DNA from: Spirochaetia bacterium
Lineage (GTDB): Bacteria > Spirochaetota > Spirochaetia > SZUA-6 > Bin103
NCBI GenBank assembly: GCA_965198005.1
Contig: CBDAOI010000004.1
Coordinates: 2,048,214-2,112,213, forward strand
Direction: 5' to 3'
Length of the DNA stretch: 64,000 bases
The position numbers and the translations under genes are program-made. Shown here in pieces: positions 1,611-29,273 of the stretch. Each line of letters begins with the position of its first letter. The first letter of the stretch is position 1. The notes beneath the pieces are model-generated. The model was not told the origin of the DNA. It ran no database searches and worked only from the letters and a program-made list of their open reading frames with translations.

Positions 1611-1614
1611 GCAG

Positions 1615-1674
1615 TTCTCGGTGAACGGGTAGTGGTGGTGGTAGGATGCACCGGCTACGTTACCGCTAACCGGT
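1615..1674 (+). repeat. Right flanking direct repeat of the tandem array
   Basis: Matches 687-744; core ggta(t/g)gatgcaccgg...cgt.ac.gc.aaccggt has the same 35-nt length in both copies (710-744 and 1640-1674). Confidence 0.7.
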
Positions 1675-6749: not shown

Positions 6750-7094
6750 CTTTTAGGTGGGGGTCACCGTTGTACCCGGAGTAAGTACTGGCGGTGGCCC
6801 CTATCTTTTTTCGTGATCTCCGGAACGCTTCCCGGACGAACCTATCCTACCCCCACTGGCGGATTTGTCCACATCTCGGAAATCTCACCTGGCGGGCAAC
6901 ACGCCTTGAAGGCATCGCGCGTTTCGAACACGCGAGCGTGGATCGCTGCCGGGTCGTGACCGCGGCGCCAAGGCTCTGACACTAGAAGCCTATCCCAGCC
7001 TACCACTACCACCGCCGCGTTGCCCGGCAGACTGACGCCCCGTCACCCGCGAATCAGCGACGCCGCCACGCGGCGTCCGCACTCAGCGTCGGTC

Positions 7095-7103
7095 TGCTAT
7101 CAT
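7095..7103 (+). promoter_or_regulatory. Extended -10 element (TGcTATCAT), probable leaderless transcript for the helicase
   Basis: TG at 7095-7096, TATCAT at 7098-7103, GTG start at 7110, no SD sequence. Confidence 0.45.
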
Positions 7104-7109
7104 CACCGA

Positions 7110-10100
7110 GTGAAGCTGGAAGACCTGCAGGCCACCGCCACCGTGCGCGGCATCCTGGCCGATGCCGCGGTGAGCGTCGTCAGCGTGCGCTGGTTCGGGT
7201 CGCAGGCGCTGGAGCTGACCTACCGCACGGCGGGTGGCGAGCTGGGCAGCGAGATCCTCTACCGCGATGACGAAGCCCGGCTGGAGATCGCCGAGCAGGG
7301 GCGCCCGTGGAGCTTCGATGGGGACGGGGAGCTGTTTCGGCTGGTGTCCGAGGCGCTGCGGATTCGCCTCGCGCACCTGTTCGATCCGGCGTTGGCGGTG
7401 CACACGTCGCTGGTGGAGCCGCTTCCCCACCAGATCACCGCGGTCTACGAGGCGATGCTGCCGCGCCAGCCGCTGCGCTTTCTGCTGGCCGACGATCCCG
7501 GCGCCGGTAAGACGATCATGGCCGGCCTGCTCATGAAGGAGCTGATTGCGCGCGGCGACCTGCAGCGCTGCCTGGTGGTGTGCCCCGGCAGCCTGGCGGA
7601 GCAGTGGCAGGATGAGCTGTACCGCCGTTTCCATCTGAACTTCGAGATCTTCACCAACGACAAGCTGGCCGCCGCCCGCACCGGCAACTGGTTCCTGGAA
7701 GCCGACCTGGTGATCGCCCGCCTGGACAAGCTCGCGCGCGACGCCGAGCTGCAGGACAAGCTCCAGGCGCCCGACTGTCGCTGGGACCTGATCGTCTGCG
7801 ACGAGGCGCACAAGATGGCGGCCACCTTCACCGGCGGTGAGGTCAAGTACACCAAGCGCTACCGCCTGGGCCAACTGCTCGGACGCCTGACGCGCCACTT
7901 CCTGCTGCTCACCGCCACCCCGCACAACGGCAAGGAGGAGGACTTCCAACTGTTCATGGCGCTGCTGGACGGCGACCGCTTCGAGGGACGGTTCCGCGAC
8001 GGCGTCCACGTGGTGGATGTCTCCGACCTGATGCGGCGCATGGTGAAGGAGCGCCTGCTCAAGTTCGACGGCACGCCGCTGTTCCCCGAGCGCGTGGCCC
8101 ACACCATCCCCTATCAACTCTCCACCGTAGAGGCGCACCTGTATCGGGCGGTCACCAGCTACGTGCGCGAGGAGTTCAACCGCGCTGAGGCGCTGGACAA
8201 CAACAAGCGGGCGGGTACGGTGGGATTCGCCCTGACGCTGCTGCAGCGCCGCCTCGCCTCGTCACCGGAGGCGATTTACCAGTCGCTACGGCGGCGGCGG
8301 CAGCGGCTGGAGAGTCGCCTGCGCGAGCTGGAACTGTTGCGTCGTGGTGATCAGGCGGCGGCTCGTGTCGCGCTGCCGCCCGGCGTCGAGTTGGACCCGG
8401 ATGACATCGACGATCTGGAAGACGCGCCCGCCGGCGAGTGGGAGGAGACGGCCCAGCAGATCCTCGACCAGGCGACTGCGGCGCGCTCCAGTGCCGAGCT
8501 GAGAGCCGAGATCCGGACCCTGCGCCACGTCGAGCAGGTGGCGCTCGGCGTGCGGCGCAGCGGCAACGATGCCAAGTGGCGCGAGCTCGCGGGGCTCCTG
8601 GGCGAGATTTTCTCGCGTCGCGCCACGGGGCAGGCGGCGGCACCCGGGCACGGCCGCAAGCTGGTGATCTTCACCGAACACCGCGACACCCTCGACTATC
8701 TGCGCGGCCGTATCGCCACGGTACAGGGACGTGACCAAGCGGTGGTGGTGATCCACGGCGGCATGGGCCGCGAGGAGCGGATGAAAGCGCAGGAGGCGTT
8801 CCTGCACAACCGCGACGTGCAGATCCTGCTGGCTACCGACGCGGCGGGCGAGGGGATCAACCTGCAGCGCGCCCATCTGATGGTGAACTACGACCTGCCG
8901 TGGAACCCGAACCGGCTCGAACAGCGTTTCGGCCGCATCCACCGCATCGGTCAAACCGAGGTGTGTCACCTGTGGAACCTGGTGGCGGATGAGACCCGCG
9001 AAGGCGATGTCTACCGGCGGCTGCTGGACAAGCTGGAGCAGGCGCGCCAGACCCTCGGCGGCCAGGTGTTCGACGTACTCGGCAAGCTGCAGTTCGGCGG
9101 CCGGCCGCTGCGCGACCTGCTGCTGGAGGCGATCCGTTATGGCGAGCAGCCGTCGGTCCGCGCGCGGCTCACCACTGCCCTGGAGCACGCCCTCGACCGC
9201 GCCGCGCTACGGGACCTGCTGGAGGACCAAGCCCTGGCACCGGACGCCATGGACGCCACCCGCGTGCAGCGGGTGCGGGAGGAGCTGGAGCGCGCCGCGG
9301 CCCGGCGGCTGCAACCTCACTACGTCGAGTCGTTCTTCCGTGCGGCGTTTGCGCGCCTGGGCGGCTCGATTGGCCGGCGCGAGCCGCGCCGCTACGAGAT
9401 CACCCACGTGCCCGGCGCGGTGCGCAATCGCGACCGGCTGATCGGTGTCGGCGAGCCGGTGTCGGCCCGCTATGAGCGCATCGCCTTCGACAAGGCTCTG
9501 GTGTCCCTGCCCGGCAAGCCGCAGGCAGCGTTCGTGTGCCCGGGCCACCCGCTGCTCGACGCGGTGCTCGACCTGACGCTGGAACGCCAGCGCGATCTGC
9601 TGAAACGGGGCACCGTGCTGGTCGACGAGGGTGACACGAGGTCTGCCCCGCGCGTGTTGTTCTACCTCGAACACGCCATCCAGGACGCGAGCCGGACGCG
9701 CACCGGCGAGCGGCGCGTGGTATCGAAACGCCTGCTCTATGTCGAGCTGGCGGAGTCCGGCGCGCCGTGCCACCTGCACTATGCGCCCTACCTCGACTAT
9801 CGGCCGCTGACTCCCGAGGAACCGGCGGTTGCGGCAGTCATGGAGCGGCCCGAGTGTGCCTGGATCACCGGCGACCTGGAGCAGCGCGCCCTTGAACACG
9901 CCGTGACCGACGTCGTCCCCGAACACCTCGACGAAGTCCGCAACGCCAAGCTGGGACTCATCGCCAAGACCGAGGCCGCGGTAAAGGAGCGGCTCACCAA
10001 GGAGATCGCGTATTGGGATCATCGTGCCGCGCAGCTCCAGCTCCAGGAGCAGGCGGGTCGCACCGGCGCCCGGCTGGTCTCCGGCGAGGCGCGCCGCCGC

Positions 10101-10649
10101 GCCGACGAGCTGCAGGCACGGCTCCAGCAGCGGCTGCGGGCACTGAAGCTGGAGGCCCAACTCGCCCCGCTGCCGCCGGTCGTGCTGGGCGGGGTGCTGG
10201 TGATGCCGGCGGGTTTGATCGCGGCCATGGGCGGCCGGAAGACTGAGCCTTCGTCCCGCACCACGGCAGACACCCAGGAGGCCGCCGCTCGGGCGCGCGC
10301 CATCGTCATGGACACCGAGCGTGCCCTCGGCTTCGAACCCACCGACCGCGAATTCGAGCGCCTCGGCTACGACCTCGAGAGCCGCGTCCCCGGCACCGGC
10401 AAGCTGCGCTTCATCGAGGTCAAGGGCCGCATCCACGGCGCCGCCACCATCACCGTGACCCGCAACGAGGTTCTCTACTCGCTCAACCAGCCCGACGACT
10501 ACCGCCTCGCCATCGTCGAGTTCCTGGACGGCGACACCCACCGCGTCCACTACGTCCGCGCACCGTTCCGCCGCGAGCCGGACTTCGGCGTCACCAGCAT
10601 CAACTACTCCTTCACCGACCTCCTCGCCCGCGCCGAGGCCCCATGCTGA
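7110..10649 (+). CDS. SNF2/RapA-family helicase with C-terminal DUF3883 (NO VEIN-type nuclease-like) domain
   Basis: [11 protein letters not shown] (Walker A), IVCDEAHKM (Walker B), [44 protein letters not shown]; C-terminal LGYDLESR...[8 protein letters not shown]. GTG at 7110 is preferred over the track start at 7020. Confidence 0.93.
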   Translation: [1179 protein letters not shown]

Positions 10650-11157: not shown

Positions 11158-11226
11158 CATGGTTGACTCAAATTGTGGCGGCGTGAAATGGTACAGACGA
11201 TCCGGATCGCCGGCCAAGTGTGCAGC

Positions 11227-12264
11227 ATGACGACACCACAGCCCTCAGACAACCCTTGGATGCGCTCAACCTCGTTCGCCACGATGCTGCGCATACTGCA
11301 CATAGCAGCTGCCTCACCGCATGGCCTGACGTCGAGAGAGATCGACTCGAAGCTACTGGAAACGTTACCCGCTGCCCGACGAAGCATGCCTCCGGCAAGA
11401 ACGACACTCTATCACCATCGTAACACGTTGCTCAAGCTTCAGGCACTGCAGCGACATGGATCCACAATACAACCTAACCGCAGCCATCCAGCAGTGCAGA
11501 GACTACTGGGCCAGCACATTCTGGAAGATGGAGGACTTCACGAGACCGCTCAAGATCAGTTTGCAGATCTGGTGCTGAATAGCCCGGGGTGCCGGGAGCT
11601 GTTCTTTGATCTGTTTCTACCTCGTGGAGATAGCGAGTGCTTATCGGTGCGCGATTTTCGCTACTCTGGACTCCCGGTAATCTGGGTTAGGCAGGATTAT
11701 GGCGGCACTGCCTCTGTGCTTCTGAGGAATGATGTAACGGGTCGCACTCTTCTTTGTGAATCGGAAGTGGCCATCAAGGCTGTACTCTACGGGTTGCGGT
11801 ACTGGGCGCGAGATGAGCTCGCGCTCGTCGACGAGTACTCTCGGGTCGACGGAACCACCATTATGTTTCCGATCACTAGGGTTAGGTCGGTACGCTCAAT
11901 GGTCCATCTGATACTCTCCCTCCGTCACCAAGCTGACGAGTGGACCCTATTCTCCGTGGTGGAACTGATCGAGAGATGCTGCGTGCGTAGACGCCACCCG
12001 ATTGGGACCCTCTTCGAGGCTCTCAGGTGGCTTTCGAACGAATGGCATAGCCACGTTACGCTTATTCCGACCACATTCGCTCTTGCCACGCTCGCCGCCC
12101 GATCTCCGGGAAGAGAGCAGCTTGAACTCCGACGATACTTTCGGAGAACTGATACCGACGCCTATGTGTCCCATGTACGAATCCACCGCGACATTCCGCT
12201 TGATCCGGAACAGGTGAAACATCCACATGTCTACGATACCGCCGCAGCTCCGGCTCACGTTTAA
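11227..12264 (+). CDS. Hypothetical protein with probable N-terminal winged helix; gene 1 of a four-gene cassette
   Basis: ORF open from 11173, start uncertain. MLRILHIAAASPHGLTSREID...RTTLYHHRNTLLKLQAL fits a wHTH pattern. 3' end overlaps the ATPase gene. Confidence 0.6.
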   Translation: MTTPQPSDNPWMRSTSFATMLRILHIAAASPHGLTSREIDSKLLETLPAARRSMPPARTTLYHHRNTLLKLQALQRHGSTIQPNRSHPAVQRLLGQHILEDGGLHETAQDQFADLVLNSPGCRELFFDLFLPRGDSECLSVRDFRYSGLPVIWVRQDYGGTASVLLRNDVTGRTLLCESEVAIKAVLYGLRYWARDELALVDEYSRVDGTTIMFPITRVRSVRSMVHLILSLRHQADEWTLFSVVELIERCCVRRRHPIGTLFEALRWLSNEWHSHVTLIPTTFALATLAARSPGREQLELRRYFRRTDTDAYVSHVRIHRDIPLDPEQVKHPHVYDTAAAPAHV

Positions 12265-13408
12265 CCCGTTCGAGCCGGTTGCGTCCGGCGCACCGCACGG
12301 CAGCGACCTGGCTCCTCCGTTCGGCATTGCAGATGAGGTCCACACGTTGCTCGGCGGGTACCAGTCGGCGCGTGGGGCCAAGGGTGCGACGATAGTAGGA
12401 GAGTATGGGACTGGAAAGACCTGCCTGCTGCATTGGCTGCAGCAGCAAGAGCTTCCGAAGAATCGCATCGTGCCGTTCTATTTTGATAACCCAGGCGTAC
12501 AGTTCTATGATCTTGCGAACGAGTTGCTGCGTCAGATAGGTCGGAAGGACTTTGCTAAGTTCGTGTGGGAACTCGCCAGTCCACATGTTGGAGATCATCA
12601 GCTTGATCTTTTCGAGCGCGGCTTCGAGGCATATGTTCGGGCGTCTCCCCAGCGCAAGCAACGCGCGGACATAACCGCCCAGCTACAGCAAGCGATCGCG
12701 CGGACGGAAGTAACATCTGACGATGAGATAGCATATTGTCTTGCTCGCCTCGTTACCGAGACGGTGAGCAAACCGTACTTCGAATACCGTGATTTTGTAC
12801 CGGCTAACGCCGCCAGCATCGTTGCCGAGCGCGAGGAAGCACGCTACTTCCGTGCGATACTGAAGACGATATCGTCCGGATTGAAAGCGACTGGTATAGC
12901 CTTCTTGATCGATGAGTTCGAGGAAATTGGACTACAGAAAAGGCTCGGCAGACGCGCGGCACATGATTACCTCGCAACGGTTAAGCGGTTGCTGAATATC
13001 GCTGCAGGAGGCGAACCAGCTTTCTGGCTTTTTTTGTCGATGACACCGGAGGCTCATGACACCAGTCGGGAGCTTGAGCCGGCGCTTTTCGAGCGACTTC
13101 AGGCAGGTCTGGAACTGCGGCCGCTGACTGGAAAGGCTGCGTTGGACCTCATGAGGAACAGGATACGCTCAGCTCGAGCGGGGGAGCGGGAGCACGGCAA
13201 GAGTCAGCTGTTCCCGTTCCCAGAGCGCGTTGACTTTCTCCGACCGACTACTTATTCGAACCCGCGCAGGTTGGTCAAGACCTGCTCGTTCGCGATCGCC
13301 GACTCGACTGCGAATACCGCGGTTCCGTTCACCGCTGAATATCTTCAGGCCGTAGAGACGAAACTGTATCCTACCGATTCTCCGAGCGTAGGGAATTCTG
13401 CATCGTGA
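12227..13408 (+). CDS. AAA+/P-loop ATPase; cassette gene 2
   Basis: IVGEYGTGKT (Walker A), AFLIDEFEEI (Walker B), SNPRRLVKTC (sensor-2-like helix). 393 aa. Confidence 0.85.
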   Translation: MSTIPPQLRLTFNPFEPVASGAPHGSDLAPPFGIADEVHTLLGGYQSARGAKGATIVGEYGTGKTCLLHWLQQQELPKNRIVPFYFDNPGVQFYDLANELLRQIGRKDFAKFVWELASPHVGDHQLDLFERGFEAYVRASPQRKQRADITAQLQQAIARTEVTSDDEIAYCLARLVTETVSKPYFEYRDFVPANAASIVAEREEARYFRAILKTISSGLKATGIAFLIDEFEEIGLQKRLGRRAAHDYLATVKRLLNIAAGGEPAFWLFLSMTPEAHDTSRELEPALFERLQAGLELRPLTGKAALDLMRNRIRSARAGEREHGKSQLFPFPERVDFLRPTTYSNPRRLVKTCSFAIADSTANTAVPFTAEYLQAVETKLYPTDSPSVGNSAS

Positions 13409-14157
13409 GTCATGCTTCTTACCACTACAAGAAAGTGGCATTTCTGGACACGAACACAATTCACTACGTGCGACTCTGTTTGAGCTACGCACAAGAGCGT
13501 GTCCTGCACCCGTTCGGTCCGGCATCGACAAGTAGCTGGGACGACCTTAATCCGAGCATCCGCACGTTGTCCAGAGGCCTTCGACAGCATCTTAAGATTG
13601 GAATCAAGGTCCTCCAGTTCCTCGAACACAGAGGTGTGGACGTCAAATACTCCCGGATCTCAGAGATCGAATTAATTGCCGGCATGATTCGTGGCAAAGC
13701 AATTGAGAGCGCTGCTCGCGACGAGGTCCCGCACCGCATGCTGACCAGGATGCCGGAATCCGAAATCGCCGACCGAGTGAGCGAACAGGATCTGAGTCAG
13801 GTAGGCGCTGCCCTTGATGAACTCCCGTCGCTACTGGACGCGTTGAATATTACGATCACTGCGACGGACAGAAATAGGGAATCTGATGTACTGGGACTCG
13901 CAGCGAGGATCGCCCGGTTGCGCTATCTCGAACCGGTGGATGTCGTCATCTACGCCGAGGCGGTGCTAGCTCAGGCCGACTACTTGATTACCAGCGATGG
14001 CTATCTGCGTACGGTCACGAATGACATTCGAAACACCAAAAGGGCTCCGTTCGGCAATATCCGTACCCAGGTGATCCAAATCGCAGCAGATGCCCTACTC
14101 CAGGAACCCGGTAGTGTGATCCTGCCGGATGCACCAAAGAAGCTCGTTAGGAGCTGA
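13405..14157 (+). CDS. PIN-domain nuclease; cassette gene 3
   Basis: VAFLDTN at the N-terminus, SEIEL, EPVDVVIYAEA, YLITSDGYL supply the PIN acidic tetrad. GTGA overlap with the ATPase gene. Confidence 0.78.
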   Translation: MSHASYHYKKVAFLDTNTIHYVRLCLSYAQERVLHPFGPASTSSWDDLNPSIRTLSRGLRQHLKIGIKVLQFLEHRGVDVKYSRISEIELIAGMIRGKAIESAARDEVPHRMLTRMPESEIADRVSEQDLSQVGAALDELPSLLDALNITITATDRNRESDVLGLAARIARLRYLEPVDVVIYAEAVLAQADYLITSDGYLRTVTNDIRNTKRAPFGNIRTQVIQIAADALLQEPGSVILPDAPKKLVRS

Positions 14158-15388
14158 TCTCGACTTCAGCGTGGCATATCATGTCGTCGAATACCCGGCA
14201 GCGAGGCGTTGGGTAACACCTCAGACAGCCCGCGCACAACCGGTCCACCGATGGTACCTGTTCCCGCATAGTTTCACCGGCGATCTCGTGCACGCTCTCG
14301 TCGATGAATGGGGTCTGAGTAACCACGATCGGATTCTCGACCCGTTCGTTGGCGCAGGGACGACATTGGTCAGTGCCAGGGAGCGTAACGTGTCAGCGTT
14401 TGGCTATGACATATCGCCACTTGCGGTTCTGATTGCTAACACCAAGACATCGAGATATTCCGAGGAGCGCCTCGCCACGTGCTGGCGCTCTCTCTTGGCA
14501 TCTCAAGGCCTATTCGACGATAGGGTCTCCGTAGATGTTGCTGATTTGGTTCGTCGGGCGCTTCCCGACGGACGACTGGAGGCGTTTCAGTCTCTCCACA
14601 ATTGCATCATGGAACTTGACGGTGCTTCGCCCGAACGCGACTTCTTTCGGCTGGCGTTGCTTGCCATACTCCCTCAATTCAGTGCGACTGCTGCAAATGG
14701 AGGGTGGCTGCGATGGAGGGTGGCCGGTCTTCCTGCCGAGCAGGTCGTCCATGCGTTTGCCGAACGGGTAAGGATGATGCTGGCTGAAGTCGAGCATTAC
14801 CGGCGACCAGTGACGGGCACTTGGAGCGCAGCCCTCGCCGATGCCCGCGACCTGCCGGATGCGGAGGCCACCTACTCGGCAGTCATCACCTCGCCACCGT
14901 ATCCTAACCGACACGACTACACTCGGGTCTTCGGTGTAGAGCTGATGTTCGCGTTCCTGAGCTCGGAGGAAACGCGACAACTTCGCCATCGTAGTTTCCA
15001 TTCTCATCCGGAAGCCCGTCCAAGTCGTGGTAATGCACCGGAGTACGACTCTCCACGGCGTCTGGAAAGGGACTTGCACCTGTTTGGCGACGCTCGGATC
15101 CAACGGATGCTGCGCGGGTATTTCCTGGATATGTATCTGTGCTTGCGCGAGATAAGGCGAGTATGTCGCGTCGGCGCCAGAATTGCCTTGGTAGTCGGCA
15201 ACGTACGGTATAGAGGCCACCCGATCATGGTAGATGAGCTGACCGCTGAGGTTGGTGAGCAGGCCGGATTGAGCTGTCGTGAGATCCGTGTGGCACGATG
15301 GCGGGGGAACAGCGCGCAGCAGATGGGCCGGTTTGGCCGCACGGCATCGCGCGAGAGCCTGGTTGTGTTTGAGAACGACGGGGCGTAA
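14129..15388 (+). CDS. Amino-DNA methyltransferase, probably N4-cytosine (BsoBI/AvaI-like); cassette gene 4
   Basis: VHRWYLFPHSF, ILDPFVGAGTT (SAM-binding), VITSPPYPNRHDYTR (SPPY catalytic motif), ALVVGNVRY, SRESLVVF. Start uncertain (14129 or a nearby GTG). Confidence 0.85.
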   Translation: MHQRSSLGADLDFSVAYHVVEYPAARRWVTPQTARAQPVHRWYLFPHSFTGDLVHALVDEWGLSNHDRILDPFVGAGTTLVSARERNVSAFGYDISPLAVLIANTKTSRYSEERLATCWRSLLASQGLFDDRVSVDVADLVRRALPDGRLEAFQSLHNCIMELDGASPERDFFRLALLAILPQFSATAANGGWLRWRVAGLPAEQVVHAFAERVRMMLAEVEHYRRPVTGTWSAALADARDLPDAEATYSAVITSPPYPNRHDYTRVFGVELMFAFLSSEETRQLRHRSFHSHPEARPSRGNAPEYDSPRRLERDLHLFGDARIQRMLRGYFLDMYLCLREIRRVCRVGARIALVVGNVRYRGHPIMVDELTAEVGEQAGLSCREIRVARWRGNSAQQMGRFGRTASRESLVVFENDGA

Positions 15389-15397
15389 CAAAGCGAA

Positions 15398-15453
15398 GCG
15401 GCTCTCGATGTCGTAGCCGAGGCGCTCGACTTGCGGGCGGTGGGCTCGAAGCC
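15398..15453 (-). repeat. Inverted near-copy of the helicase DUF3883 coding sequence
   Basis: Reverse complement ggcttcgagcccaccgcccgcaagtcgagcgcctcggctacgacatcgagagccgc matches 10329-10385 ggcttcgaacccaccgaccgcgaattcgagcgcctcggctacgacctcgagagccgc with 5 differences in 57 nt. Confidence 0.85.
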
Positions 15454-15715
15454 CGGGCTGCCTTCCATAGTCCTCTCGGTGCACGAGTCCGTTGCCGCGC
15501 TCTGGCCGGCGTCAGGCCGCAGCGGGGTGCAACGCGTGCGGCGCTCCGCGCCCGACCGCCGCAGCAGGGGGAGGGGCGAACGCATGTGCCATAGCCGCTG
15601 TGGGCCATTGCTCACCTGCGCGTTGCCATGCTCGTCGCAACACCCCCGTACGCCGGTCGTCTGTCACGCCACGTCGGTCGACTGGCTGCTCGGTGTGGCC
15701 AGGCCATTATATTAG

Positions 15716-15750
15716 TTTACAAACGATGGCCAGAGGTGCTATACTGTAAA
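15716..15750 (+). promoter_or_regulatory. Sigma70-type promoter overlapped by an inverted repeat
   Basis: TTTACA (15716-15721), 18-nt spacer, TGc-TATACT (15740-15745). TTTACA and TGTAAA (15745-15750) form an inverted pair. GAGGAGG SD at about 15758-15764, ATG at 15773. Confidence 0.7.
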
Positions 15751-15772
15751 TCGTCCGAGGAGGGGACCGGTC

Positions 15773-16867
15773 ATGGTTGGGAGAAGGCTCAAACTCGCTC
15801 GCGCGGCTACTGGGCTGTCCCTGCGCGGGCTGGAACGGCGAATCGGCGGCCGCGTGACGGCCCAGGCGATAGGAAAATATGAGCGCGATGAATCGATGCC
15901 GAGTTCCGGGGTTCTCATTGCGTTGGTGGAAGCGCTGGGCGTATCCGTCGAGTACCTGGTGAGTGAGCAGCACCTTGTACTCGAAACGGTCGAGTTCAGG
16001 AAGAAGACGATCTCGCGCAAACGCGACGAGGCGCGAGTGCAAGCCCGGGTGGTGGACATGATGGAGCGCTATCTTACCGTTGAGCAGGTACTTGCTCTAC
16101 CGAGCGTCGCTTGGGCAAGGCCCCGTGAGGCGCCCTATCCCGTGGTCGGCGACCTGACGGGTGCCGAGCGAGCAGCCCGCAGCCTGCGCCGACACTGGGA
16201 TCTTGGACGAAAACCGATCGCAAGCATGGTTGAGTTGCTGGAGGAGTCCGGTATCAAGGTTCTGGCATCCGAGCTCACCGACATTGCGGGCCTGACCGCG
16301 TACGCGCGTTTGGGTGATAGACAGGTCGAACCGTTTATCGTGCTAAACGGACAGCACTCGGGAGAGCGGCAACGTTTCACGCTGGCCCACGAACTCGGAC
16401 ACTTGGTGCTCGCCGTGGATGCCGACATCAATGCGGAGAAGGCGGCTCATCGCTTCGCAGCCGCCTTCCTCATGCCGCCCGACGCCCTGCGGATGGAGAT
16501 CGGCGCCCGCCGCACCTCCATTGGATGGAGCGAGCTGCTCAGCCTGAAGCGCGTGTTCGGGGTCAGCGTGCAGGCACTCGTGTATCGCTGCCGCGACCTC
16601 GCCATCATCAGCGAGGCGTTGTACCGGCGCCTGTTTCGAGAAATGTCGCGGCTTGGCTGGAGAACCCCACCCTACACCGAGCCGCACCCGATCCCAGTGG
16701 AGGAGCCCACCCGGTTCGTGCGGCTATGCCTGCGCGCCATGGCCGAGAACGTCATCTCCGAGCGCAAGGCCGCCGAGTTGCTTGATATGTCGGTCCACGA
16801 TTTGAACCGTAGTATCGCGACGCCCCCTGAGGTAGTGGACGCCGTCCGAGCAATGGTAGGGACTTGA
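15773..16867 (+). CDS. XRE-family HTH fused to ImmA/IrrE (peptidase M78) metallopeptidase
   Basis: RLKLARAATGLSLRGLE...AIGKYERDESMP (XRE HTH); RQRFTLAHELGHLVL (HExxH); AHRFAAAFLMP. Confidence 0.92.
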   Translation: MVGRRLKLARAATGLSLRGLERRIGGRVTAQAIGKYERDESMPSSGVLIALVEALGVSVEYLVSEQHLVLETVEFRKKTISRKRDEARVQARVVDMMERYLTVEQVLALPSVAWARPREAPYPVVGDLTGAERAARSLRRHWDLGRKPIASMVELLEESGIKVLASELTDIAGLTAYARLGDRQVEPFIVLNGQHSGERQRFTLAHELGHLVLAVDADINAEKAAHRFAAAFLMPPDALRMEIGARRTSIGWSELLSLKRVFGVSVQALVYRCRDLAIISEALYRRLFREMSRLGWRTPPYTEPHPIPVEEPTRFVRLCLRAMAENVISERKAAELLDMSVHDLNRSIATPPEVVDAVRAMVGT

Positions 16868-16934
16868 TGACTATCCGTTCGCAGATTATCGAACCGACGT
16901 TGCTCGTCCACCTGGTATACCTTGGAACTCGCCA

Positions 16935-18491
16935 ATGAAACAGAGCAAAGACAGTATCAGTCAACAAGCAATAGAATGGTCGATACTGCACCTTCAAAAG
17001 CACGGCGACACGGATATTTTTCCAAAGCCATTTGAGTACACAGCAGTGGGAGATCAGGCCATCCGTGAACATGTAGCGAAAGTTGATCTCGCATGTTACA
17101 AGACGAGAGATGCGCGGATGATTCTCGTGCCGAAAGCGGGATATGGGTTTCGTGTGAGCCATCAGCTCGATCCTATCGACTCAATCGTCTACACGGCATC
17201 AGTATATGAGATCAGCAAAGATATTGAGCGTTGGAGAGTACCAGTCGACGAGCGTATTGCATGTTCCTATCGGATACAACCTACGGACGATGGTGATTTC
17301 TTCCCGCGTGATAACGGATGGTCAAGCTACTACGAGCAGTCCTCCATGCTCGCCAATATTCATCGATACGTTCTGCACATCGACGTTGCCGCATTCTATA
17401 ACCAGATCTATCATCACCGACTTCAAGGAGCGCTTGACGAAGCTGGAATATCTCTAGAACGGTCGAAGAACATTGAACGATTCCTAGGTAGTTTAACGGC
17501 AAGACAGTCTCAGGGTATACCGATCGGTCCTGCAGCGTCTCATGTTCTCGCGGAAGCATGCTTGAACGACGTGGACCGATCTCTGAAGGATAAGGGATAC
17601 AACTTCACGCGCTATGTCGATAATATCCGGATGTTTTTTAGCGATCGACGGACATCCTGGAATGCGCTGCATCATGTTACTCAGTATCTCTACACGGCTC
17701 ACCGGTTATCCATTCAGGACTCGAAGACACAATTCGAGGCAGCGACGGAGTTCAAGTCGGAACGATTGGAAGATCCGCAATTCCGGGAAGATCAACAGAA
17801 GGAGCGAGCACTAGACGATCTCATTAGCGAGATGCGGGAGGCGAGCGGATACGAGGACATCGGGATTCACGATCTGGGAGAAGATGCTGACAAGGAGTTG
17901 CGCAGGGTCTTGGAGGAGCTGTTTCGCGAGGCGATTGATCATACACCGGTGAAGTTTGGCATGATACGACACGTGCTGCGCAGAGCGAAGTCGATGCGAT
18001 CGCGTGTGCTGCATCCTGGAGTGCTTGAGAAACTCGAGAGCCTCATTCCCGTTTTTCGTGACGTTTGTCTCTATCTTATGCACACCTTGCCCACCGATCA
18101 ATGTCGGGCACGCGAAGTGGGTGACAGGCTACTCGAGATCGCGTGCCGGTCGGATTGGTCCTGTGCATTTGTTCAGCTCTGGGTGCTTCACGTACTACAG
18201 GAGAAGCCGCGTGCGGCGAGGTATGAGGATGCTGTCAAACTTGCTCGTTCAGCGGAGAGCGAGTTGGGAATCAGGCCGATGGCGCTGCTCGCGCGGGCCT
18301 TCAAGAAGACCCACTGGGTACGTGGCAAAAAGGAGACCGTGATGGCTTTGTCGCCATGGGATCGACGAGCGGTAATCTACGCGGGACAGATTCTCCCTGC
18401 CAAGGAGAAGAAGATCTGGTTGAATATGATCAAGGAGAAGGGAGATCATTTGGATATAGCGGTGGCTAACTGCCTGCTGTCTTCGAGCTAG
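16935..18491 (+). CDS. Reverse transcriptase of the Abi/unknown-group (DRT-like) class with alpha-helical C-terminus; YVDN active site
   Basis: HGDTDIFP N-terminal motif, VPKAGYGFR, HIDVAAFYNQIYHH, GIPIGPAASHVLAE, RYVDNIRMF, LSIQDSKT. No group II intron X/En domain. 518 aa. Visibly more AT-rich than the core genome. Confidence 0.85.
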   Translation: MKQSKDSISQQAIEWSILHLQKHGDTDIFPKPFEYTAVGDQAIREHVAKVDLACYKTRDARMILVPKAGYGFRVSHQLDPIDSIVYTASVYEISKDIERWRVPVDERIACSYRIQPTDDGDFFPRDNGWSSYYEQSSMLANIHRYVLHIDVAAFYNQIYHHRLQGALDEAGISLERSKNIERFLGSLTARQSQGIPIGPAASHVLAEACLNDVDRSLKDKGYNFTRYVDNIRMFFSDRRTSWNALHHVTQYLYTAHRLSIQDSKTQFEAATEFKSERLEDPQFREDQQKERALDDLISEMREASGYEDIGIHDLGEDADKELRRVLEELFREAIDHTPVKFGMIRHVLRRAKSMRSRVLHPGVLEKLESLIPVFRDVCLYLMHTLPTDQCRAREVGDRLLEIACRSDWSCAFVQLWVLHVLQEKPRAARYEDAVKLARSAESELGIRPMALLARAFKKTHWVRGKKETVMALSPWDRRAVIYAGQILPAKEKKIWLNMIKEKGDHLDIAVANCLLSSS

Positions 18492-18580
18492 GTGAGTGCT
18501 GACTACTTTGGATGGGTATTGCAGAGTCTTGCTTGTGTTAAAGCGCTTAGCCGTACCCGACGGCTGGCGCGGCGGATACG

Positions 18581-21474
<2,894 letters not shown>

Positions 21475-21478
<4 letters not shown>

Positions 21479-24180
21479 GTGCTGCCTGGAACTGGCCCGG
21501 CTCACGCTGGTGGCGCGTTGATCTGCATGCGCATTCGCCGGCGTCGCACGACTTCGGCACCCAGCCGGACCGTGATCGTCCAGATTGGGTGCGCTGGATC
21601 ACCGCCGCACGGGACGCCGGGCTGCACGCCGTCGCGGTGACCGATCATAACACGGCAGCGGCGGTCTCAGATCTCCAACATGCCGCTCAGCAGGTGGATG
21701 GGAGTCCGGTGCTGTTCCCCGGCGTCGAGGTTACGTCCAGCGACGGCGTACACATTATCCTTCTGGTGGACCCGGGTCAGTCGCAACAGCACGTCGACGA
21801 CTTGCTGTCAAGGGCGGACATCAGTGTGGCGAAGCGGGGTGACGAGACCGCCCGTTCACCGCTGAGCATCGAGCAAATCATAGCTGCATGCGCGGATGAT
21901 GCGCTGATCATCGCTCCGCACATCAACCGGCCGAGTGGGTTGCTTGAGCATGATGGTCAGCAGCGCATCGCAGAGTTGGGGGATGCCCGCCTGGCAGCGG
22001 TCGAGGTGGATCCCGAGGTGAGTATCGACGACTCCTGGATCGATGGGAGCAAACCTGAGATCGGGCGCCGTATCCCCCAGGTATGGAATTCCGATGCCCA
22101 CGCTTTCGATCAGTTGGGCCGACGCTGTACCTGGGTCAAGATGACCAAACCGGATGTCGGAGGTCTGAGGCTGGCCCTGCTCGACGGTGAAGACTCAGTC
22201 CAACGTGCGGTAGCGGAAGGAGCACCCGACCCGAACACGCACGCCGCAGCGGCCATCGAAGCCGTAACGGTACGAGATGCGAAGTATCTCGGTCGATCCC
22301 GACCGTGGCCCGTGACGTTCAACCCTTGGCTCAACGCAATCATTGGCGGACGCGGGACCGGCAAGTCGACGCTCGTGGACTTCTGTCGTGCGGCCCTTCG
22401 GCGCGACGCTGAGCTCCGCGATCACGCTGAGTTGCGTGACGCGTTACAACTAAGGCTGCGGGTCCCTCCCGAACGTGGCAAAGAGGGCCTCCTGACAGAC
22501 CGAACGACGATTGAGCTGATCTACCGGAAAGATGGGGAGCGTTTCGCCCTTTCCTGGAGTCTCGATGGATCCGTCATAGCAATCGAGCGCTGTGACGGGG
22601 AGCAACGGATTCCCGAGGAGGGCGACATCCGCGAGCGGTTTCCGGTACGTATCTACAGCCAAAAACAACTATTCGAAGTTGCCCGTAACCCGAATGCATT
22701 GCTCGCGGTGATCGACGATAGTGCGGAGGTCAAGGGAACTCATCTGCACCGGCATCGGGACGAAGTCGCCGCCCGCTACATGGCACTCCGAGCGGAGGCG
22801 CGCGCGCTACGGGCTGAAGCGGCTGACCTCCCCGCGCGCAGAGCCGCGCTTGCCGATGTGCGGAGGAAACTAAACGTGCTTCAAACTGGGAGCCACGAGT
22901 CGGTCATGAAGACCTATCGGAAGTACCACCGCTACGACGGCGCTTGGCAGTCGATCCAGAAGGATATTCGCGAGGCGGTTGCCGAGATCGGTCGTATGGT
23001 CGAGGACCTTGCGGTCGCAGATTTGGAGTGGGAAGAAACCAACGAAGACGACCCGGCAACGGCCGCACTGCGGAACGCGCACGAAGAACTCGGCCGGACG
23101 GTTGGCGCTCTCCAACAAGGCCTGCGGGCGGCCGTAGCGCTTGCTGAGCACCAACTCAAGGGGCTCGAAGGAAGTGCGGATGTGAACACTTGGCGCCAGG
23201 CGGTAAACGCAAGCACGTCACACTACGAGCTCGTTTCGTTGAATCTTGAGGCGGCGGGTATCGCCAATCCGGCGGAATACCGCACGTTGCTTGATGAGGC
23301 AGCCGCTCTTAAACAAGAAACTGTGCATCGAACTCAGCAAGATACCGTGGCAGAGCAGCGAGAAGAAGACGCAGCGGCCGTACTCAAGGAGTACCGCTCG
23401 CTGTGTGTCGAATTGAGCCGGAGGCGCGAGCGATTCGCGGCCCTGACCTCCAGCGACCTGGTGCGTATTGAGATCGATGCTGCCGGCCAGCGCAGCTATC
23501 TTGAGGAGTTTCTGCGCGAGACCTTGGGGATCGAGCGATTCGATAGAGACTACACGGAGCTGGCGCAGCGGATCCAACCCAACGGCGGGCAGAGTTGGAC
23601 TTGGGAGGCTCTGGATACCGTTGTCGACAAGCTGCGTTCGTTGGTAGCGGGAGTCGATCCAAGGTGGCCCGTACGGGATCGTCGGTTTTTGAATGCTCTG
23701 CAGCGGCTCCAGCCGGAGCGGCTAGACCGACTGGCGCTCTACCTGCCGGAAGACGCCGTCACGGTGAGCTTTCGCGACCAGCGTCAACCGGGAGCGCCGT
23801 GGCGGCCTCTCGCGCAAGGATCACCGGGGCAGCAAACTGCGGCCCTGCTGGCGTTCGTACTGGGGTACGGTGACGAGCCGATCATCCTGGATCAGCCCGA
23901 GGACGACCTGGACAATTCCTTCATCTACGAACTGCTCGTGCGTCGACTGCGGGAACAGAAGCTCCAGCGGCAAGTCATCGTCGTGACGCACAACCCCAAC
24001 ATCGTCGTACATGGAGATGCGGAACTCGTCGTGTCGTTGGAGACACGCTGCGGAGAGACTCACATCGTCTGTTTGGGCGGCCTGCAGGAGCGCGCGGTAC
24101 GAGACGAGATCTGTCGGGTGATGGAAGGTGGACGAGAAGCGTTTCTCAGTCGCTATCGGCGTATCATCCCCGGCGATTAG
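21475..24180 (+). CDS. PHP-domain + SMC/ABC-type ATPase fusion (Ppl/TrlF-like defence protein)
   Basis: DLHAHSPASHD, AVTDHN, GVEVT, H...PHIN, NSDAH (PHP metal ligands); IIGGRGTGKST; long coiled coil; LAQGSPGQQTAALL and IILDQPEDDLDN...VVTHNPN. ATGA overlap with the methyltransferase gene. Confidence 0.88.
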
Positions 24181-24187
24181 GCCACCG

Positions 24188-25405
24188 ATGACCGACACCG
24201 ACCTGCTCCGACAGATCCGACTCGGCGAAGATGGACGGGTAGAGTTCAAGCAGGTGTTCTTCTCCGGAGATCGAGTGACGAATCCGACCAGGAACGCGCT
24301 CGCCAATGAGCTGGCCGGGCTGGCCAACGGACGTGGCGGCACCCTGCTCCTGGGAGTTCATGACAAGACCAAAGAGATTCTTGGCATACCGCTGCCGCGT
24401 GTCGACACCGCAGAAGGCTGGGTGCGCGAGATTTGCAACGACTCGATCAAGCCGCCGCTTGACGCCGATATTCGCAAGATCGAGCTGCCAAATGATGACG
24501 GCGACCTGGTGCCGATCATTCGCGTCGACGTGCCACGCAGCCTGTTCGTACACGAGAGCCCTGGCGGATACTTCCGCCGCATCGGGAGTTCGCACCGCAA
24601 GCTTCCGGCGGAGGCACTGGCGCGGCTGTTTCAAGAGCGCAGTCAAAGCCGCGTGATCCGCTTCGACGAGTCGATCGTGCCGAGGGCTGCTGCCCGCGAC
24701 GTGGATGACCAGTTGTCCCAGCGTTTCCTGCGGGACGACGTCGCGGCGACGGAGGACACGCTACGCAAGCTGCGTATCGTGAGCGACGACCTGGACGGTG
24801 TTCCACGGCTGACGCTCGCAGGAGCGCTCATGTGCACGCTCGATCCGCAGCAATGGCTGCCGCACGCGCAGATTCAGGCCGTGAGCTACGCCGGCGAACG
24901 GTATGATGTGAACTACCAGAACGACGCCCGCGACCTGAATGGGCCGCTCGACGCCCAGGTCGCCGAGGCGCTCCACTTCGTGCGCCGCAACATGCTGGTC
25001 CGCGCTACCAAGCTGACCGGGCGTACCGAGCGCCCTCAGTTCAGCGAGCGGGCGGTGTTCGAGGCGCTGGTGAACGCCGTGGCACACCGGGATTACTCGA
25101 TAGCAGGGGCGAGGATTCGTTTGCATTTGTTCGGGAATCGACTCGAACTCTACGTTCCGGGCGGTCTCGCCAACACGCTCACACCCGACAGCTTGCATCT
25201 GCGGCAGGCCAGCCGTAACGAACTGATCGTGTCGCTGCTTGCCCGCTGCCCCGCGCCCGAGGGAGTCGGACGCTCGCACCTCATGGACCGGCGTGGCGAT
25301 GGTGTTCCCATCATCCTGCGTGAGAGTCGGGCGCTGTCGGGTCGACTGCCGGAGTACACGCTGATCGACGACAGCGAGCTGCGGCTCGTCATCTGGGCGG
25401 CGTAG
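24188..25405 (+). CDS. Schlafen/AlbA_2 domain + HATPase_c_4 (RecG-C-like) protein
   Basis: LGEDGRVEFK, LAGLANGRGGTLLLGVHD, AVFEALVNAVAHRDYS, RLELYVPGGL, SRNELIVSLL, MDRRGDGVP. ATG at 24188, 7 nt after the previous stop. Confidence 0.85.
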   Translation: MTDTDLLRQIRLGEDGRVEFKQVFFSGDRVTNPTRNALANELAGLANGRGGTLLLGVHDKTKEILGIPLPRVDTAEGWVREICNDSIKPPLDADIRKIELPNDDGDLVPIIRVDVPRSLFVHESPGGYFRRIGSSHRKLPAEALARLFQERSQSRVIRFDESIVPRAAARDVDDQLSQRFLRDDVAATEDTLRKLRIVSDDLDGVPRLTLAGALMCTLDPQQWLPHAQIQAVSYAGERYDVNYQNDARDLNGPLDAQVAEALHFVRRNMLVRATKLTGRTERPQFSERAVFEALVNAVAHRDYSIAGARIRLHLFGNRLELYVPGGLANTLTPDSLHLRQASRNELIVSLLARCPAPEGVGRSHLMDRRGDGVPIILRESRALSGRLPEYTLIDDSELRLVIWAA

Positions 25406-28900: not shown

Positions 28901-29273
28901 CGCCCACTCTCCAGGACTGCTCGTCAAGCCCGAGGTGGCACGGCAGCAGCTCGACGAGGAAGTGCCTCTGCCCCCGGGACCTGATCCACGCCCGGGACCC
29001 GACCCGCCCCCACCGCCGCCTCCATCACCAAAGCCGACGCTGAAGCGCTACCACGGCTCCGTAACCCTCGACACCGCCCGCGTCGGGCTCTCGGCCAGTC
29101 AGATTGCCGAGGAAGTGATCGCCCACCTCAACGGCCTTCCGGGAGCGCAGGTCACGGTGACGCTGGACATCCAGGCCGACATCCCCGAGGGCGCGCCGGA
29201 TCACGTCGTGCGCACGGTTACCGAGAACAGCCGCACGCTCAGGTTCACAGATCTGGGATTCGAGCCGGAGTAG
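25974..29273 (+). CDS. DUF499-family AAA+ ATPase with N-terminal Swt1-like HEPN domain
   Basis: N-terminal ELREHRNKWAHQ (Rx4H HEPN motif); LKPWREVVTPHQDV, QTNFGGGKTHSMLALYHL, ILIDEWVAY, YPIHPEVF, FQRTRGVLRLMA. Confidence 0.93.
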   Translation: MAVTNHERVGKGLELLRSGLGPFVERELKRAVQARELDDYRLREIAGDPSLRRGSAEWDVAMLLKLMWEMWNEVFRTILGRSDRSLVSELREHRNKWAHQELFSSDDAYRVLDSAQRLLTSVSAPQVQEIDTLKQELLRVRYQEQVRGEQRKKGRTTVADGAVAGLKPWREVVTPHQDVASGRYQQAEFAADLWQIYLGQGTAEYRDPVEFFRRTYLTDSLRAMLTGAVQRLAGLGSDPVVQLQTNFGGGKTHSMLALYHLFSGTPPTSLAGIDGVLKAADAGELPAVRRVVLVGNRISPGNPVTKDDGTVVRTLWGELAWQLGGKEAFARLAADDENATSPGDRLRELLIEHGPCLILIDEWVAYARQLHDQSDLPAGSFETQFTFAQALTESAKLAGNCLLVISLPASDADESPHTQADDAEVGGQRGREALDRLRNVIGRIESSWRPATAEESFEIVRRRLFQPFNDPAQFTARDVVARGFSELYGAQQQEFPRECREGDYEKRIKAAYPIHPEVFNRLYTDWSALAKFQRTRGVLRLMAAVIHSLWEKGDSSPLILPASVAIDDVRVQSELTRYLDDNWTPIIEKDVDGAGSLPMRIDAEQPNLGKFAAARRVARAIFLGSAPTTAAAHRGIDDRRVKLGCVMPGETPAVFGDALRRLATVATYLYEDSARYWYDTQPTVTKLAEDRAEQLLRSRDRVAHEIATHTRAKLREAGDFSRVHPFPQSGQDVPDDLDTRLVVLDPEHPYTRGGVSPAETQAQAIFESRGNAPRIYRNTLVFLAADATRLQELDQAVRRLLAWESIVGEKEQLNLAPHQVRQADTQREAAATEMVSRIPETYRWLLVPGQATPQSEVTWDALNLTGSDSLAVRAANKLKSQEGLVTGYAASLLRMELDRVPLWRQNHVSVAQLVEDFARYLYLPRLRDPQVLLGSITDGVSSMTWEQDGFAFADSYDEAKGRYPNLRTSQQIMLPDAHSPGLLVKPEVARQQLDEEVPLPPGPDPRPGPDPPPPPPPSPKPTLKRYHGSVTLDTARVGLSASQIAEEVIAHLNGLPGAQVTVTLDIQADIPEGAPDHVVRTVTENSRTLRFTDLGFEPE

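What the first reader, a model, noticed from the sequence alone, without database searches (positions are those of the whole stretch)
15716..18491. XRE-ImmA/IrrE metallopeptidase regulator directly upstream of an Abi/UG-type reverse transcriptase
Seen: a strong promoter with an overlapping TTTACA/TGTAAA inverted repeat, the XRE-HExxH gene, a 67-bp gap, then a 518-aa RT on the same strand. Established: HTH-M78 peptidase fusions are the antitoxin RmrA of RosmerTA, where the partner toxin is variable, and CapH/CapP-type repressor-peptidase modules control defence operons. Abi/UG RTs (AbiK, DRT systems) are anti-phage effectors. Inference: the RT occupies the toxin slot of a RosmerTA-like pair, or is a damage-inducible DRT under XRE-peptidase autoregulation. 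Neither flank (67 bp and 89 bp) leaves room for a large ncRNA, which suggests a template-independent or protein-primed RT.
Basis: partly seen in the sequence, partly recalled or inferred. Interest (0 to 1): 0.7.

Follow-up and report, generated by a model that had tools for sequence, protein, structure and literature searches.

The report
Repressor-peptidase gene with swapped-in reverse transcriptase
A self-repressing regulator-peptidase gene that normally sits in front of a small PIN toxin is here followed by a defence-type reverse transcriptase, which suggests that bacteria plug different suicide effectors into one inducible control module.

Summary
A 364-aa XRE-HTH + M78 peptidase gene (15773-16867; PADLOC RmrA, E 8e-64) lies 67 bp upstream of a 518-aa reverse transcriptase (RT) gene (16935-18491; PADLOC Drt8/UG7, E 4e-136). 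A promoter-like site with an inverted repeat precedes the pair.

The repeat is a family-wide operator. GTTTACA-N23-TGTAAAC occurs in 24 of 33 distinct relatives, four of them with both half-sites changed together.

In 28 of 35 relatives the regulator is followed directly by a ~165-aa PIN-like (DUF3368) toxin. Here the PIN gene is replaced by the low-GC RT, and in two other relatives by a Dsr2-like sirtuin. So the RT does sit in the toxin slot.

None of about 95 RT homologues has an adjacent XRE-M78 gene. The RT's nearest clade carries fused HicB antitoxin modules instead. The pairing is therefore a local cargo swap, not a conserved two-gene system.

The RT folds like the ncRNA-free, template-independent polymerases DRT6, DRT4 and AbiK. 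Its active-site motif is YVDN, shared with part of its clade.

The most likely mechanism is stress-inducible expression of a stand-alone abortive-infection RT from the RmrA-repressed promoter. No function was tested. I rate it a new variant of known kinds, of moderate interest.

The parts
15715..15751 (+). Operator: inverted repeat GTTTACA-N23-TGTAAAT. It overlaps the -35 (TTTACA) and the -10 (TATACT) of the regulator's promoter.
   Evidence: site and repeat; the same repeat is in 24 of 33 distinct homologous upstream regions, 4 with compensatory TTGACA/TGTCAA; unique in the window.
15773..16867 (+). RmrA-type regulator/antitoxin (364 aa). It has an N-terminal XRE helix-turn-helix, an M78 (ImmA/IrrE) zinc peptidase with HELGH, and a helical C-terminal part.
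   Evidence: Pfam HTH_3 + Peptidase_M78. PADLOC RmrA 7.8e-64. 2769 homologues with E<1e-30. Model pLDDT 84, with the peptidase core matching PprI/IrrE and CapP.
16867..16938 (+). 23-codon ORF (MTIRSQIIEPTLLVHLVYLGTRQ) that fills the 67-bp gap. Its ATG overlaps the regulator's stop (TGATG) and its stop overlaps the RT start (ATGA). It may be a translational-coupling spacer. It is not conserved as a peptide.
   Evidence: No significant similarity to PIN 5' ends or to the equivalent spacer in L088. In L134 the equivalent stretch is in frame with the Dsr2-like gene.
16935..18491 (+). UG7/DRT8-class reverse transcriptase (518 aa). It comprises an RT palm/fingers domain plus an all-helical C-terminal repeat domain. 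Its GC content is 52%, against 63% for the regulator.
   Evidence: PADLOC Drt8 3.8e-136 over residues 8-513. Pfam RVT_1. Model pLDDT 94. Fold closest to DRT6, DRT4/UG15, AbiK and Abi-P2. GC content. Tree placement.
17613..17624 (+). RT motif C reads YVDN (residues 227-230) instead of YxDD.
   Evidence: 109 of 113 aligned homologues have xxDD. YxDN occurs only in the window, P0001, P0002 and P0006, plus the partial P0008. The motif A Asp150 is invariant.
18492..18580 (+). 89-bp spacer to hmaB. It holds a weak 6-bp hairpin (18549-18565) without a T-run. No terminator-like site is predicted.
18581..21478 (+). Context: HmaB (DUF1156 adenine methylase) of an Hma (DISARM-like) system. Its genes HmaA (7020-10649) and HmaC (25974-29273) bracket the island in which the pair is embedded.
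   Evidence: PADLOC HmaB E=0. HmaA and HmaC E=0.

Best explanation
The pair is a cargo swap inside a RosmerTA-like / CapH-CapP-fusion-like module.

Shown:
- The regulator belongs to a large, well conserved XRE-M78 family.
- That family has its own operator-promoter. Its canonical downstream partner is a PIN-like DUF3368 toxin.
- In this lineage the PIN gene has been replaced by a horizontally acquired, low-GC UG7/DRT8-class RT.
- That RT lacks the fused HicB module carried by its closest relatives.
- No consensus promoter or terminator-like site was predicted between the two genes. The stop and start codons are chained through a 23-codon ORF.

Inferred:
- The RT is transcribed from the RmrA promoter. 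A dimer of the regulator's XRE domains represses this promoter by binding GTTTACA-N23-TGTAAAC across the -35 and -10 elements.
- A stress or phage cue activates the M78 peptidase to cut the regulator. The cue could be ssDNA or DNA damage, as for CapP, IrrE and ImmA.
- De-repression then raises the level of the RT, and perhaps of downstream hmaB.
- By analogy with DRT4, DRT6 and AbiK, the RT then makes untemplated or protein-primed DNA that arrests the infected cell.
- The YVDN active site may mean attenuated or metal-altered catalysis.
For: Regulator identity and its slot:
- Identity.
- PIN-like partner directly downstream in 28 of 35 distinct relatives (23 full length), at -40 to +14 bp from the stop in most.
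- Alternative cargo at the same place: Dsr2-like SIR2 (PADLOC 3.3e-165) in L088 and L134. The regulator there is under strong purifying selection (dN/dS 0.125 at dS 0.45), so PIN-less arrangements are stable.
- PIN cargo has the regulator's GC (63-64%). The RT (52%) and Dsr2 (56-58%) do not.

Operator:
- Conservation and covariation; unique in the window.

Coupling of the two genes:
- No promoter-like or terminator-like site between the genes.
- Overlapping stop and start codons.

RT side:
- The window RT sits in a 7-member clade (support 100/97). Five of the other six members are HicB-fused; the sixth (P0005) is on a 2.8-kb contig. Other subclades are fused to DUF4926 or BrnA-type modules. 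Antitoxin-type front ends therefore recur in this RT lineage, and here that place is taken by a separate regulator gene.
- Fold like single-gene template-independent polymerases.

Population and expression:
- The locus is identical, with an intact RT, in three independent DNA data sets. A 163-nt identical contig inside the RT is present in a sponge metatranscriptome.

Precedents for regulatory use of this family:
- The same regulator family lies divergent to CBASS operons in L083, L130 and L133.
- Lau et al. report CapH-CapP fusions with a vapC-like gene at DISARM systems.
Against: - None of about 95 loci of RT homologues has an adjacent XRE-M78 gene. Members of this RT family evidently work without one.
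- The pairing is seen in one lineage only: the window, near-identical copies in other samples, and L085.
- The regulator stays intact in relatives where the PIN gene is decayed or absent and nothing comparable follows (L089, L129, L131). Its retention therefore need not depend on the downstream gene.
- Co-transcription is not shown. The single RNA contig lies inside the RT and could be DNA carry-over.
- YVDN may mean the RT is catalytically impaired.
- The regulator lacks CapP's GAF domain, so the ssDNA trigger is only an analogy.
Confidence: 0.5

Rival explanations
1. Mere adjacency. The RT is an autonomous single-gene DRT8-like system that landed in a recombination-prone spot of an Hma defence island and destroyed the PIN gene. 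The regulator is an orphaned antitoxin, or a regulator with other targets, and has no functional tie to the RT beyond incidental read-through.
For: - RT homologues are stand-alone everywhere, with no conserved neighbour in 80 loci.
- There is a sharp GC break at the junction.
- PIN loss with an intact regulator is common in this clade (L086 IS66 insertion, L089, L129, L131).
- The island is a mosaic of inserted systems: a four-gene module, Ppl, and a Schlafen/AlbA_2 protein.
Against: - No promoter-like site was found for the RT, and stop and start codons are chained across the gap.
- The RT lost the HicB front end typical of its clade, together with whatever promoter preceded it.
- The parallel RmrA-Dsr2-HmaB arrangement is kept across dS 0.45.
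Confidence: 0.25
2. A true toxin-antitoxin pair. The regulator neutralises the RT at the protein level, by binding it or by M78 cleavage, as RmrA does for RmrT. The RT is toxic when the regulator is removed.
For: - The RT occupies the RmrT slot.
- RosmerTA toxins are diverse and partner swapping is the rule for ImmA-type antitoxins (PMC10440598).
- Relatives of the RT are fused to antitoxin-type domains HicB, BrnA and DUF4926.
Against: - A protein-protein interface evolved for a 165-aa PIN toxin is unlikely to fit a 518-aa RT straight after a cargo swap.
- No co-variation or recurrence of the pair was found.
- Stand-alone homologues show that the RT is tolerated without such a partner.
Confidence: 0.15
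3. The RT is a catalytically dead relic (YVDN). The locus is a decaying remnant with no current role.
For: - The second Asp of YxDD is Asn.
- In L085 the RT region is split into three ORFs.
Against: - The ORF is intact and identical in three DNA data sets.
- YxDN is shared by lineages 56-63% identical with otherwise conserved motifs.
- The YADN pair P0001/P0002 shows dN/dS 0.33 in the RT part.
- L085 is a 2.19x-coverage assembly, so its frameshifts may be sequencing errors.
Confidence: 0.1

Closest known systems
RosmerTA (RmrT/RmrA) toxin-antitoxin defence systems
   Same: An XRE-HTH + M78/ImmA-type peptidase protein (PADLOC RmrA 7.8e-64) sits next to a variable effector gene in one orientation. 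The family's canonical partner found here (PIN-like) matches the ImmA-PIN association reported by NetFlax (PMC10440598).
   Different: The effector is a 518-aa UG7/DRT8 reverse transcriptase, which no paper I read reports as an RmrT. It lies 67 bp away rather than at -40 to +14 bp. The pairing is not recurrent. Toxicity and neutralisation are untested.
CapH/CapP (and ImmR/ImmA, DdrO/IrrE) repressor-peptidase regulators of defence operons, including the CapH-CapP fusions with a vapC-like gene at DISARM systems (Lau et al., bioRxiv 10.1101/2022.04.27.489752)
   Same: An HTH repressor plus an M78 peptidase, with a palindromic operator over the promoter. Relatives are placed divergently from CBASS operons, and the gene lies inside a DISARM-like (Hma) island. 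The peptidase core matches CapP and PprI structures.
   Different: The two functions are fused in one protein. The C-terminal part is helical, with no GAF domain. Here the gene is co-directional with, and upstream of, the gene presumed to be controlled. The trigger is unknown.
DRT8 (UG7) of Mestre et al. 2022 (PMC9226505)
   Same: The RT belongs to the same family (Drt8 HMM 3.8e-136, nearly full length). It has a Class 1 helical-repeat C-terminal domain and lies in a defence island.
   Different: The validated DRT8 needs a PD-(D/E)XK nuclease partner, and none is present here. The motif is YVDN instead of YxDD. An XRE-M78 gene lies upstream. Sister sequences carry HicB fusions, a co-occurrence noted only in a table of the myRT paper (PMC8934634).
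DRT4 (UG15), DRT6 (UG12), AbiK and Abi-P2: single-gene template-independent or protein-primed DNA polymerases
   Same: These are the best structural matches to the RT model (Foldseek E 1e-13 to 1e-10, TM about 0.6). There is no ncRNA and no room for one.
   Different: Only 13-18% sequence identity. The oligomeric state, priming residue and product are unknown. The active site is altered.

Membership tests
RosmerTA | Antitoxin RmrA: XRE HTH + M78 zinc peptidase with HExxH | tested here: met
   Pfam HTH_3 and Peptidase_M78. 14 PADLOC RmrA models with E 7.8e-64 to 2.5e-29. HELGH is conserved.
RosmerTA | Adjacent co-oriented partner gene in the toxin position | tested here: met
   The RT starts 67 bp after the stop, on the same strand. 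Relatives have a PIN-like toxin in that position in 28 of 35 loci.
RosmerTA | Partner is toxic and is neutralised by RmrA; the pair protects against phage | not testable with these tools
   Needs expression and phage assays.
RosmerTA | Pairing recurs among homologues of the partner | tested here: not met
   0 of about 95 RT-homologue loci have an adjacent XRE-M78 gene.
DRT8 / UG7 | RT of the UG7 clade | tested here: met
   PADLOC Drt8 3.8e-136, residues 8-513 on profile positions 2-488 of 493. The next best model, RT_UG21, scores 1.7e-44.
DRT8 / UG7 | Catalytic YxDD in motif C (RT activity is required for DRT8 defence) | tested here: not met
   YVDN at residues 227-230. 109 of 113 homologues have xxDD.
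DRT8 / UG7 | PD-(D/E)XK nuclease partner (cluster 17) of the experimentally validated variant | tested here: not met
   The neighbours are the regulator and HmaB. The locus corresponds to the partner-less UG7 variant of Mestre et al..
Class 1 UG/Abi polymerases (AbiK, DRT4, DRT6) | RT domain followed by a helical-repeat C-terminal domain; no ncRNA | tested here: met
   Model pLDDT 94; residues 281-517 are all helical. Top PDB matches are DRT6, DRT4/UG15, AbiK and Abi-P2. No Rfam match.
Class 1 UG/Abi polymerases (AbiK, DRT4, DRT6) | Template-independent or protein-primed DNA synthesis | not testable with these tools
   Needs biochemistry.
CapH/CapP | HTH repressor with a palindromic operator at the promoter | tested here: met
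   Conserved, covarying inverted repeat across the -35 and -10 elements. DNA binding itself was not tested.
CapH/CapP | CapP architecture: M78 peptidase + GAF domain with a cysteine-switch loop; two separate genes divergent from the operon | tested here: not met
   A single fused protein. After residue 275 there are only helices. Foldseek aligns only about 170 columns to CapP and PprI. The capP HMM covers profile positions 5-152 of 242. The gene is co-directional here.
CapH/CapP | ssDNA/DNA-damage-stimulated cleavage of the repressor | not testable with these tools
   Needs cleavage assays.

The most novel reading that the evidence does not exclude
The RmrA-type repressor-peptidase with its operator acts as a plug-and-play inducible socket inside Hma/DISARM-like islands. 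Otherwise autonomous abortive-infection effectors (PIN toxin, Dsr2 sirtuin, UG7 RT, an unknown 480-aa protein) are swapped into it by recombination at the regulator's stop codon. Within this, a YxDN subclade of UG7 RTs, otherwise fused to HicB/BrnA/DUF4926 antitoxin-type modules, would be intrinsically toxic polymerases that always need a cis-encoded brake. This would give the still mechanism-less DRT8 family a regulatory logic.
Probability: 0.3. Interest if true: 0.65.

Novelty: new variant of a known kind. Interest (0 to 1): 0.45.

Why it matters
DRT8/UG7 is still listed as having no established mechanism (PMC13213688). How toxic single-gene defence enzymes are kept silent is also an open question.

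This locus, together with the HicB-, BrnA- and DUF4926-fused relatives and the parallel RmrA-Dsr2 loci, gives a concrete and testable case. A repressor-peptidase module appears to have been re-used to gate different stand-alone effectors.

The locus also provides a natural YxDN variant of a defence RT for biochemistry.

If the adjacency is only incidental, the finding reduces to two known families sitting side by side in a defence island.

Tried and rejected
- PIN relic in the gap. I tested whether the 67-bp gap or its 23-codon ORF is a leftover of the PIN gene's 5' end. Local DNA alignments to 15 PIN starts gave z-scores of at most 2.8, which is not significant after multiple tests. A PIN HMM gave E 0.45. 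Rejected as unsupported.\n- Shared spacer. I tested whether the window's spacer and the equivalent spacer in L088 are homologous beyond the shared ATGACTATC. Result: z 0.34, p 0.36. Rejected.\n- Separate antitoxin-type genes. I looked for HicB, BrnA, DUF4926 or RmrA as separate genes next to RT homologues in 84 loci. Only the fused HicB forms appeared.\n- Conserved neighbour of the RT. All-against-all clustering of flanking ORFs found none. A Pfam scan of 74 upstream ORFs gave alanyl-tRNA synthetase in 5 cyanobacterial loci as the most frequent family.\n- ncRNA. Rfam at E up to 1 over 15300-18900 gave no match.\n- Viral contigs. The regulator has no relatives there. The 11 RT relatives found there have no M78 neighbour.\n- Further operator copies in the window: none.\n- RNA evidence for co-transcription.
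Full report
**What is there**

The window holds two co-oriented ORFs exactly as described. One runs 15773-16867 (364 aa) and the other 16935-18491 (518 aa). The gaps are 67 bp before the second ORF and 89 bp after it.

The first protein has Pfam HTH_3 and Peptidase_M78 domains with an HELGH motif. It matches fourteen PADLOC RmrA models, the best at 7.8e-64, and the capP model at 6.5e-19.

The second protein has Pfam RVT_1. It matches the PADLOC Drt8 (UG7) model at 3.8e-136 over almost its full length. The next model, RT_UG21, scores 1.7e-44.

Upstream of the first gene the scan finds TTTACA-18-TATACT with an extended-10 TG. The hexamers TTTACA and TGTAAA flank it as an inverted repeat. No terminator-like site lies between or after the two genes, and no promoter-like site lies between them. 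Rfam finds nothing in 15300-18900.

**The inverted repeat is a real operator**

I fetched 40 metagenome loci and 10 further contigs that encode relatives of the regulator. I then lined up the 100 nt before each start codon.

GTTTACA-N(22-24)-TGTAAAC is present in 24 of 33 distinct upstream regions, usually 20-31 nt before the start. Most of the rest differ by one base. Four loci carry TTGACA...TGTCAA, a change on both half-sites together. The left half-site is the -35 element, and the right half-site abuts the -10 element.

The motif occurs once in the 64-kb window. I read this as an autoregulated promoter that belongs to the regulator module, not to the RT. Binding itself is inferred.

**What the regulator normally controls**

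The regulator family is large: 2769 proteins with E<1e-30, many at 60-75% identity.

Among 35 distinct loci with at least 300 bp downstream, 28 have a PIN-like DUF3368 gene of about 165 aa directly after the regulator. In most it lies at -40 to +14 bp. It is full length in 23 of them. This matches the ImmA-PIN association in the NetFlax network and the RosmerTA logic (PMC10440598).

The exceptions are informative.
- The window and its 98%-identical counterpart L085 carry the RT.
- L088 and L134 carry a 1274-1276-aa Dsr2-like sirtuin (PADLOC 3.3e-165) at +76 to +78 bp, followed by hmaB.
- L129 keeps about 25 PIN codons followed by an unknown 480-aa gene.
- L089 keeps a PIN remnant.
- L086 has an IS66 insertion in the PIN gene.

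The two Dsr2 loci differ by dS 0.45, yet the regulator shows dN/dS 0.125. A PIN-less regulator in front of a foreign effector is therefore an evolutionarily stable arrangement.

PIN cargo shares the regulator's GC content (63-64%). The RT (52%) and Dsr2 (56-58%) do not.

**Island context**

The window encodes a complete Hma system: HmaA at 7020-10649, HmaB at 18581-21478 and HmaC at 25974-29273, all with PADLOC E=0. Other modules are inserted between these genes:
- a four-gene wHTH/AAA/PIN-like/methylase set;
- the regulator-RT pair;
- Ppl;
- a Schlafen/AlbA_2 protein.

Nearly all relatives of the regulator at 72% identity or more sit in the same kind of island. In three of them the regulator is divergent from a CBASS operon. 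This mirrors the CapH/CapP arrangement. Lau et al. described CapH-CapP fusions with a vapC-like gene at DISARM systems.

The regulator model (pLDDT 84) aligns to PprI/IrrE and CapP only over the peptidase core. It ends in helices rather than a GAF domain. So it works like these regulators but is not a CapP.

**The RT side**

I collected 80 species-representative genome loci, 11 viral loci and 4 metagenome loci that encode RT relatives. None has an adjacent XRE-M78 gene, whether searched with the single protein, with a family HMM, or with Pfam on 74 upstream ORFs. No other neighbour is conserved either. This fits the partner-less UG7 variant of Mestre et al., who mention no XRE or M78 partner.

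The pairing is local.

The closest relatives show something else.
- In a maximum-likelihood tree the window RT falls in a 7-member clade (support 100/97). Five of the other six members carry an N-terminal HicB module, some with its ribbon-helix-helix part. The sixth (P0005) is unfused and sits on a 2.8-kb contig.
- Other subclades carry DUF4926 or BrnA/DUF4415 modules.
- A HicB co-occurrence with a UG7 RT appears only as a table entry in the myRT paper.

The window RT starts exactly where the RT core begins in those fusions. It has therefore lost that front end, together with whatever promoter preceded it.

In L083 and L133 the HicB-RT and a regulator-PIN pair lie 3.4 kb apart in the same island.

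**Junction**

The 67-bp gap is one 23-codon ORF. Its ATG overlaps the regulator's TGA, and its TGA overlaps the RT's ATG.

It is not detectably a PIN relic. It is also not homologous to the L088 spacer beyond the first nine bases. In L134 the equivalent stretch is in frame with the Dsr2-like gene.

I take it as a hint of translational coupling, not as a gene.

**What kind of enzyme**

The AlphaFold model (pLDDT 94) has an RT domain followed by an all-helical repeat domain.

Its best PDB matches are hexameric DRT6, DRT4/UG15, AbiK, Abi-P2 and AbiA. These are the single-gene polymerases that work without an ncRNA. DRT4 makes untemplated ssDNA (PMC13213688).

DRT8 itself has no established mechanism. 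The validated example needs a PD-(D/E)XK nuclease that is absent here.

- In 113 aligned homologues, 109 have xxDD. YxDN occurs only in the window, P0001, P0002 and P0006, plus the partial P0008.
- These sequences are 56-63% identical to the window RT.
- The YADN pair has dN/dS 0.33 in the RT part.

So the change is an old, maintained state rather than a fresh lesion. Its biochemical meaning is open.

**Population and expression**

Contigs from three independent DNA data sets cover 15300-18678 with 0-1 differences and an intact RT. A sponge metatranscriptome has one identical 163-nt contig at 17107-17269. This is compatible with expression but says nothing about the transcript's start.

L085's RT is split into three ORFs. 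That assembly has 2.19x coverage.

**Verdict**

Best explanation (0.5). A RosmerTA-like / CapH-CapP-fusion-like repressor-peptidase has lost its PIN toxin to a cargo swap. It now drives a stand-alone Class 1 UG7 RT from its operator-controlled promoter, making the RT inducible.

Rivals:
- functionless adjacency in a mosaic island (0.25);
- a true protein-level toxin-antitoxin pair (0.15);
- a dead RT relic (0.1).

Both parts belong to known families, and the combination is new in the literature I could search. However, it is seen in one lineage only and is untested. I rate it a new variant of known kinds, with interest 0.45.

Noticed in passing
window 7020-29273: A complete Hma system is split by inserted defence modules. 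HmaA is at 7020-10649, HmaB at 18581-21478 and HmaC at 25974-29273 (HmaC has an N-terminal HEPN_Swt1 domain). The inserts are a four-gene wHTH/AAA/PIN-like/N4-N6 methylase set (11173-15388), the regulator-RT pair, Ppl (21475-24180, overlapping the hmaB stop) and a Schlafen/AlbA_2 + HATPase_c_4 protein (24128-25405).
   Followed up: partly
P0001, P0002, P0003, P0004, P0007 (L001 5683-7536; L083 6001-7935; L133 5001-6935): The closest RT relatives are single ORFs with an N-terminal HicB antitoxin module, some including its ribbon-helix-helix part, fused to the RT. Other subclades carry DUF4926 (P0009, P0017, P0018) or BrnA/DUF4415-CopG (P0044, P0081) fusions. The UG/Abi survey I read does not describe these.
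   Followed up: partly
window 17613-17624: YVDN in motif C is shared with a small subclade (YADN in P0001, P0002 and P0008; YIDN in P0006). It appears to be maintained under purifying selection. The tree needs two changes of state to explain its distribution.
   Followed up: partly
L088 6089-6181 and L134 6089-6170: A Dsr2-like SIR2 effector follows the regulator, at about +77 bp. In L134 an ATG that overlaps the regulator's stop codon is in frame with the Dsr2-like ORF, giving a possible coupled N-terminal extension. In L088 the same stretch is a separate 30-codon ORF.
   Followed up: partly
L131 6164-11116: Downstream of a regulator homologue lie a 779-aa DUF1156 fragment on the opposite strand, two tandem phage-integrase genes, and then a full DUF1156 gene. 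This looks like an invertible or shufflon-like methylase locus.
   Followed up: no
window 18567-18900: In sponge-associated DNA runs, summed contig depth over the 5' end of hmaB (the DUF1156 domain) is 900-3200, against 3-10 for the neighbouring RT. Very many related DUF1156 genes are present in those communities.
   Followed up: no
L083 10390-13935, L130 1988-6077, L133 7232-11399: The same regulator family, with its PIN partner, lies divergent from CBASS operons (SMODS cyclase, E2-CBASS, patatin), as CapH/CapP does.
   Followed up: partly
L129 6399-7841: A 480-aa protein with no Pfam or PADLOC match follows a regulator homologue and a truncated PIN remnant. It is a candidate for another swapped-in effector.
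   Followed up: partly
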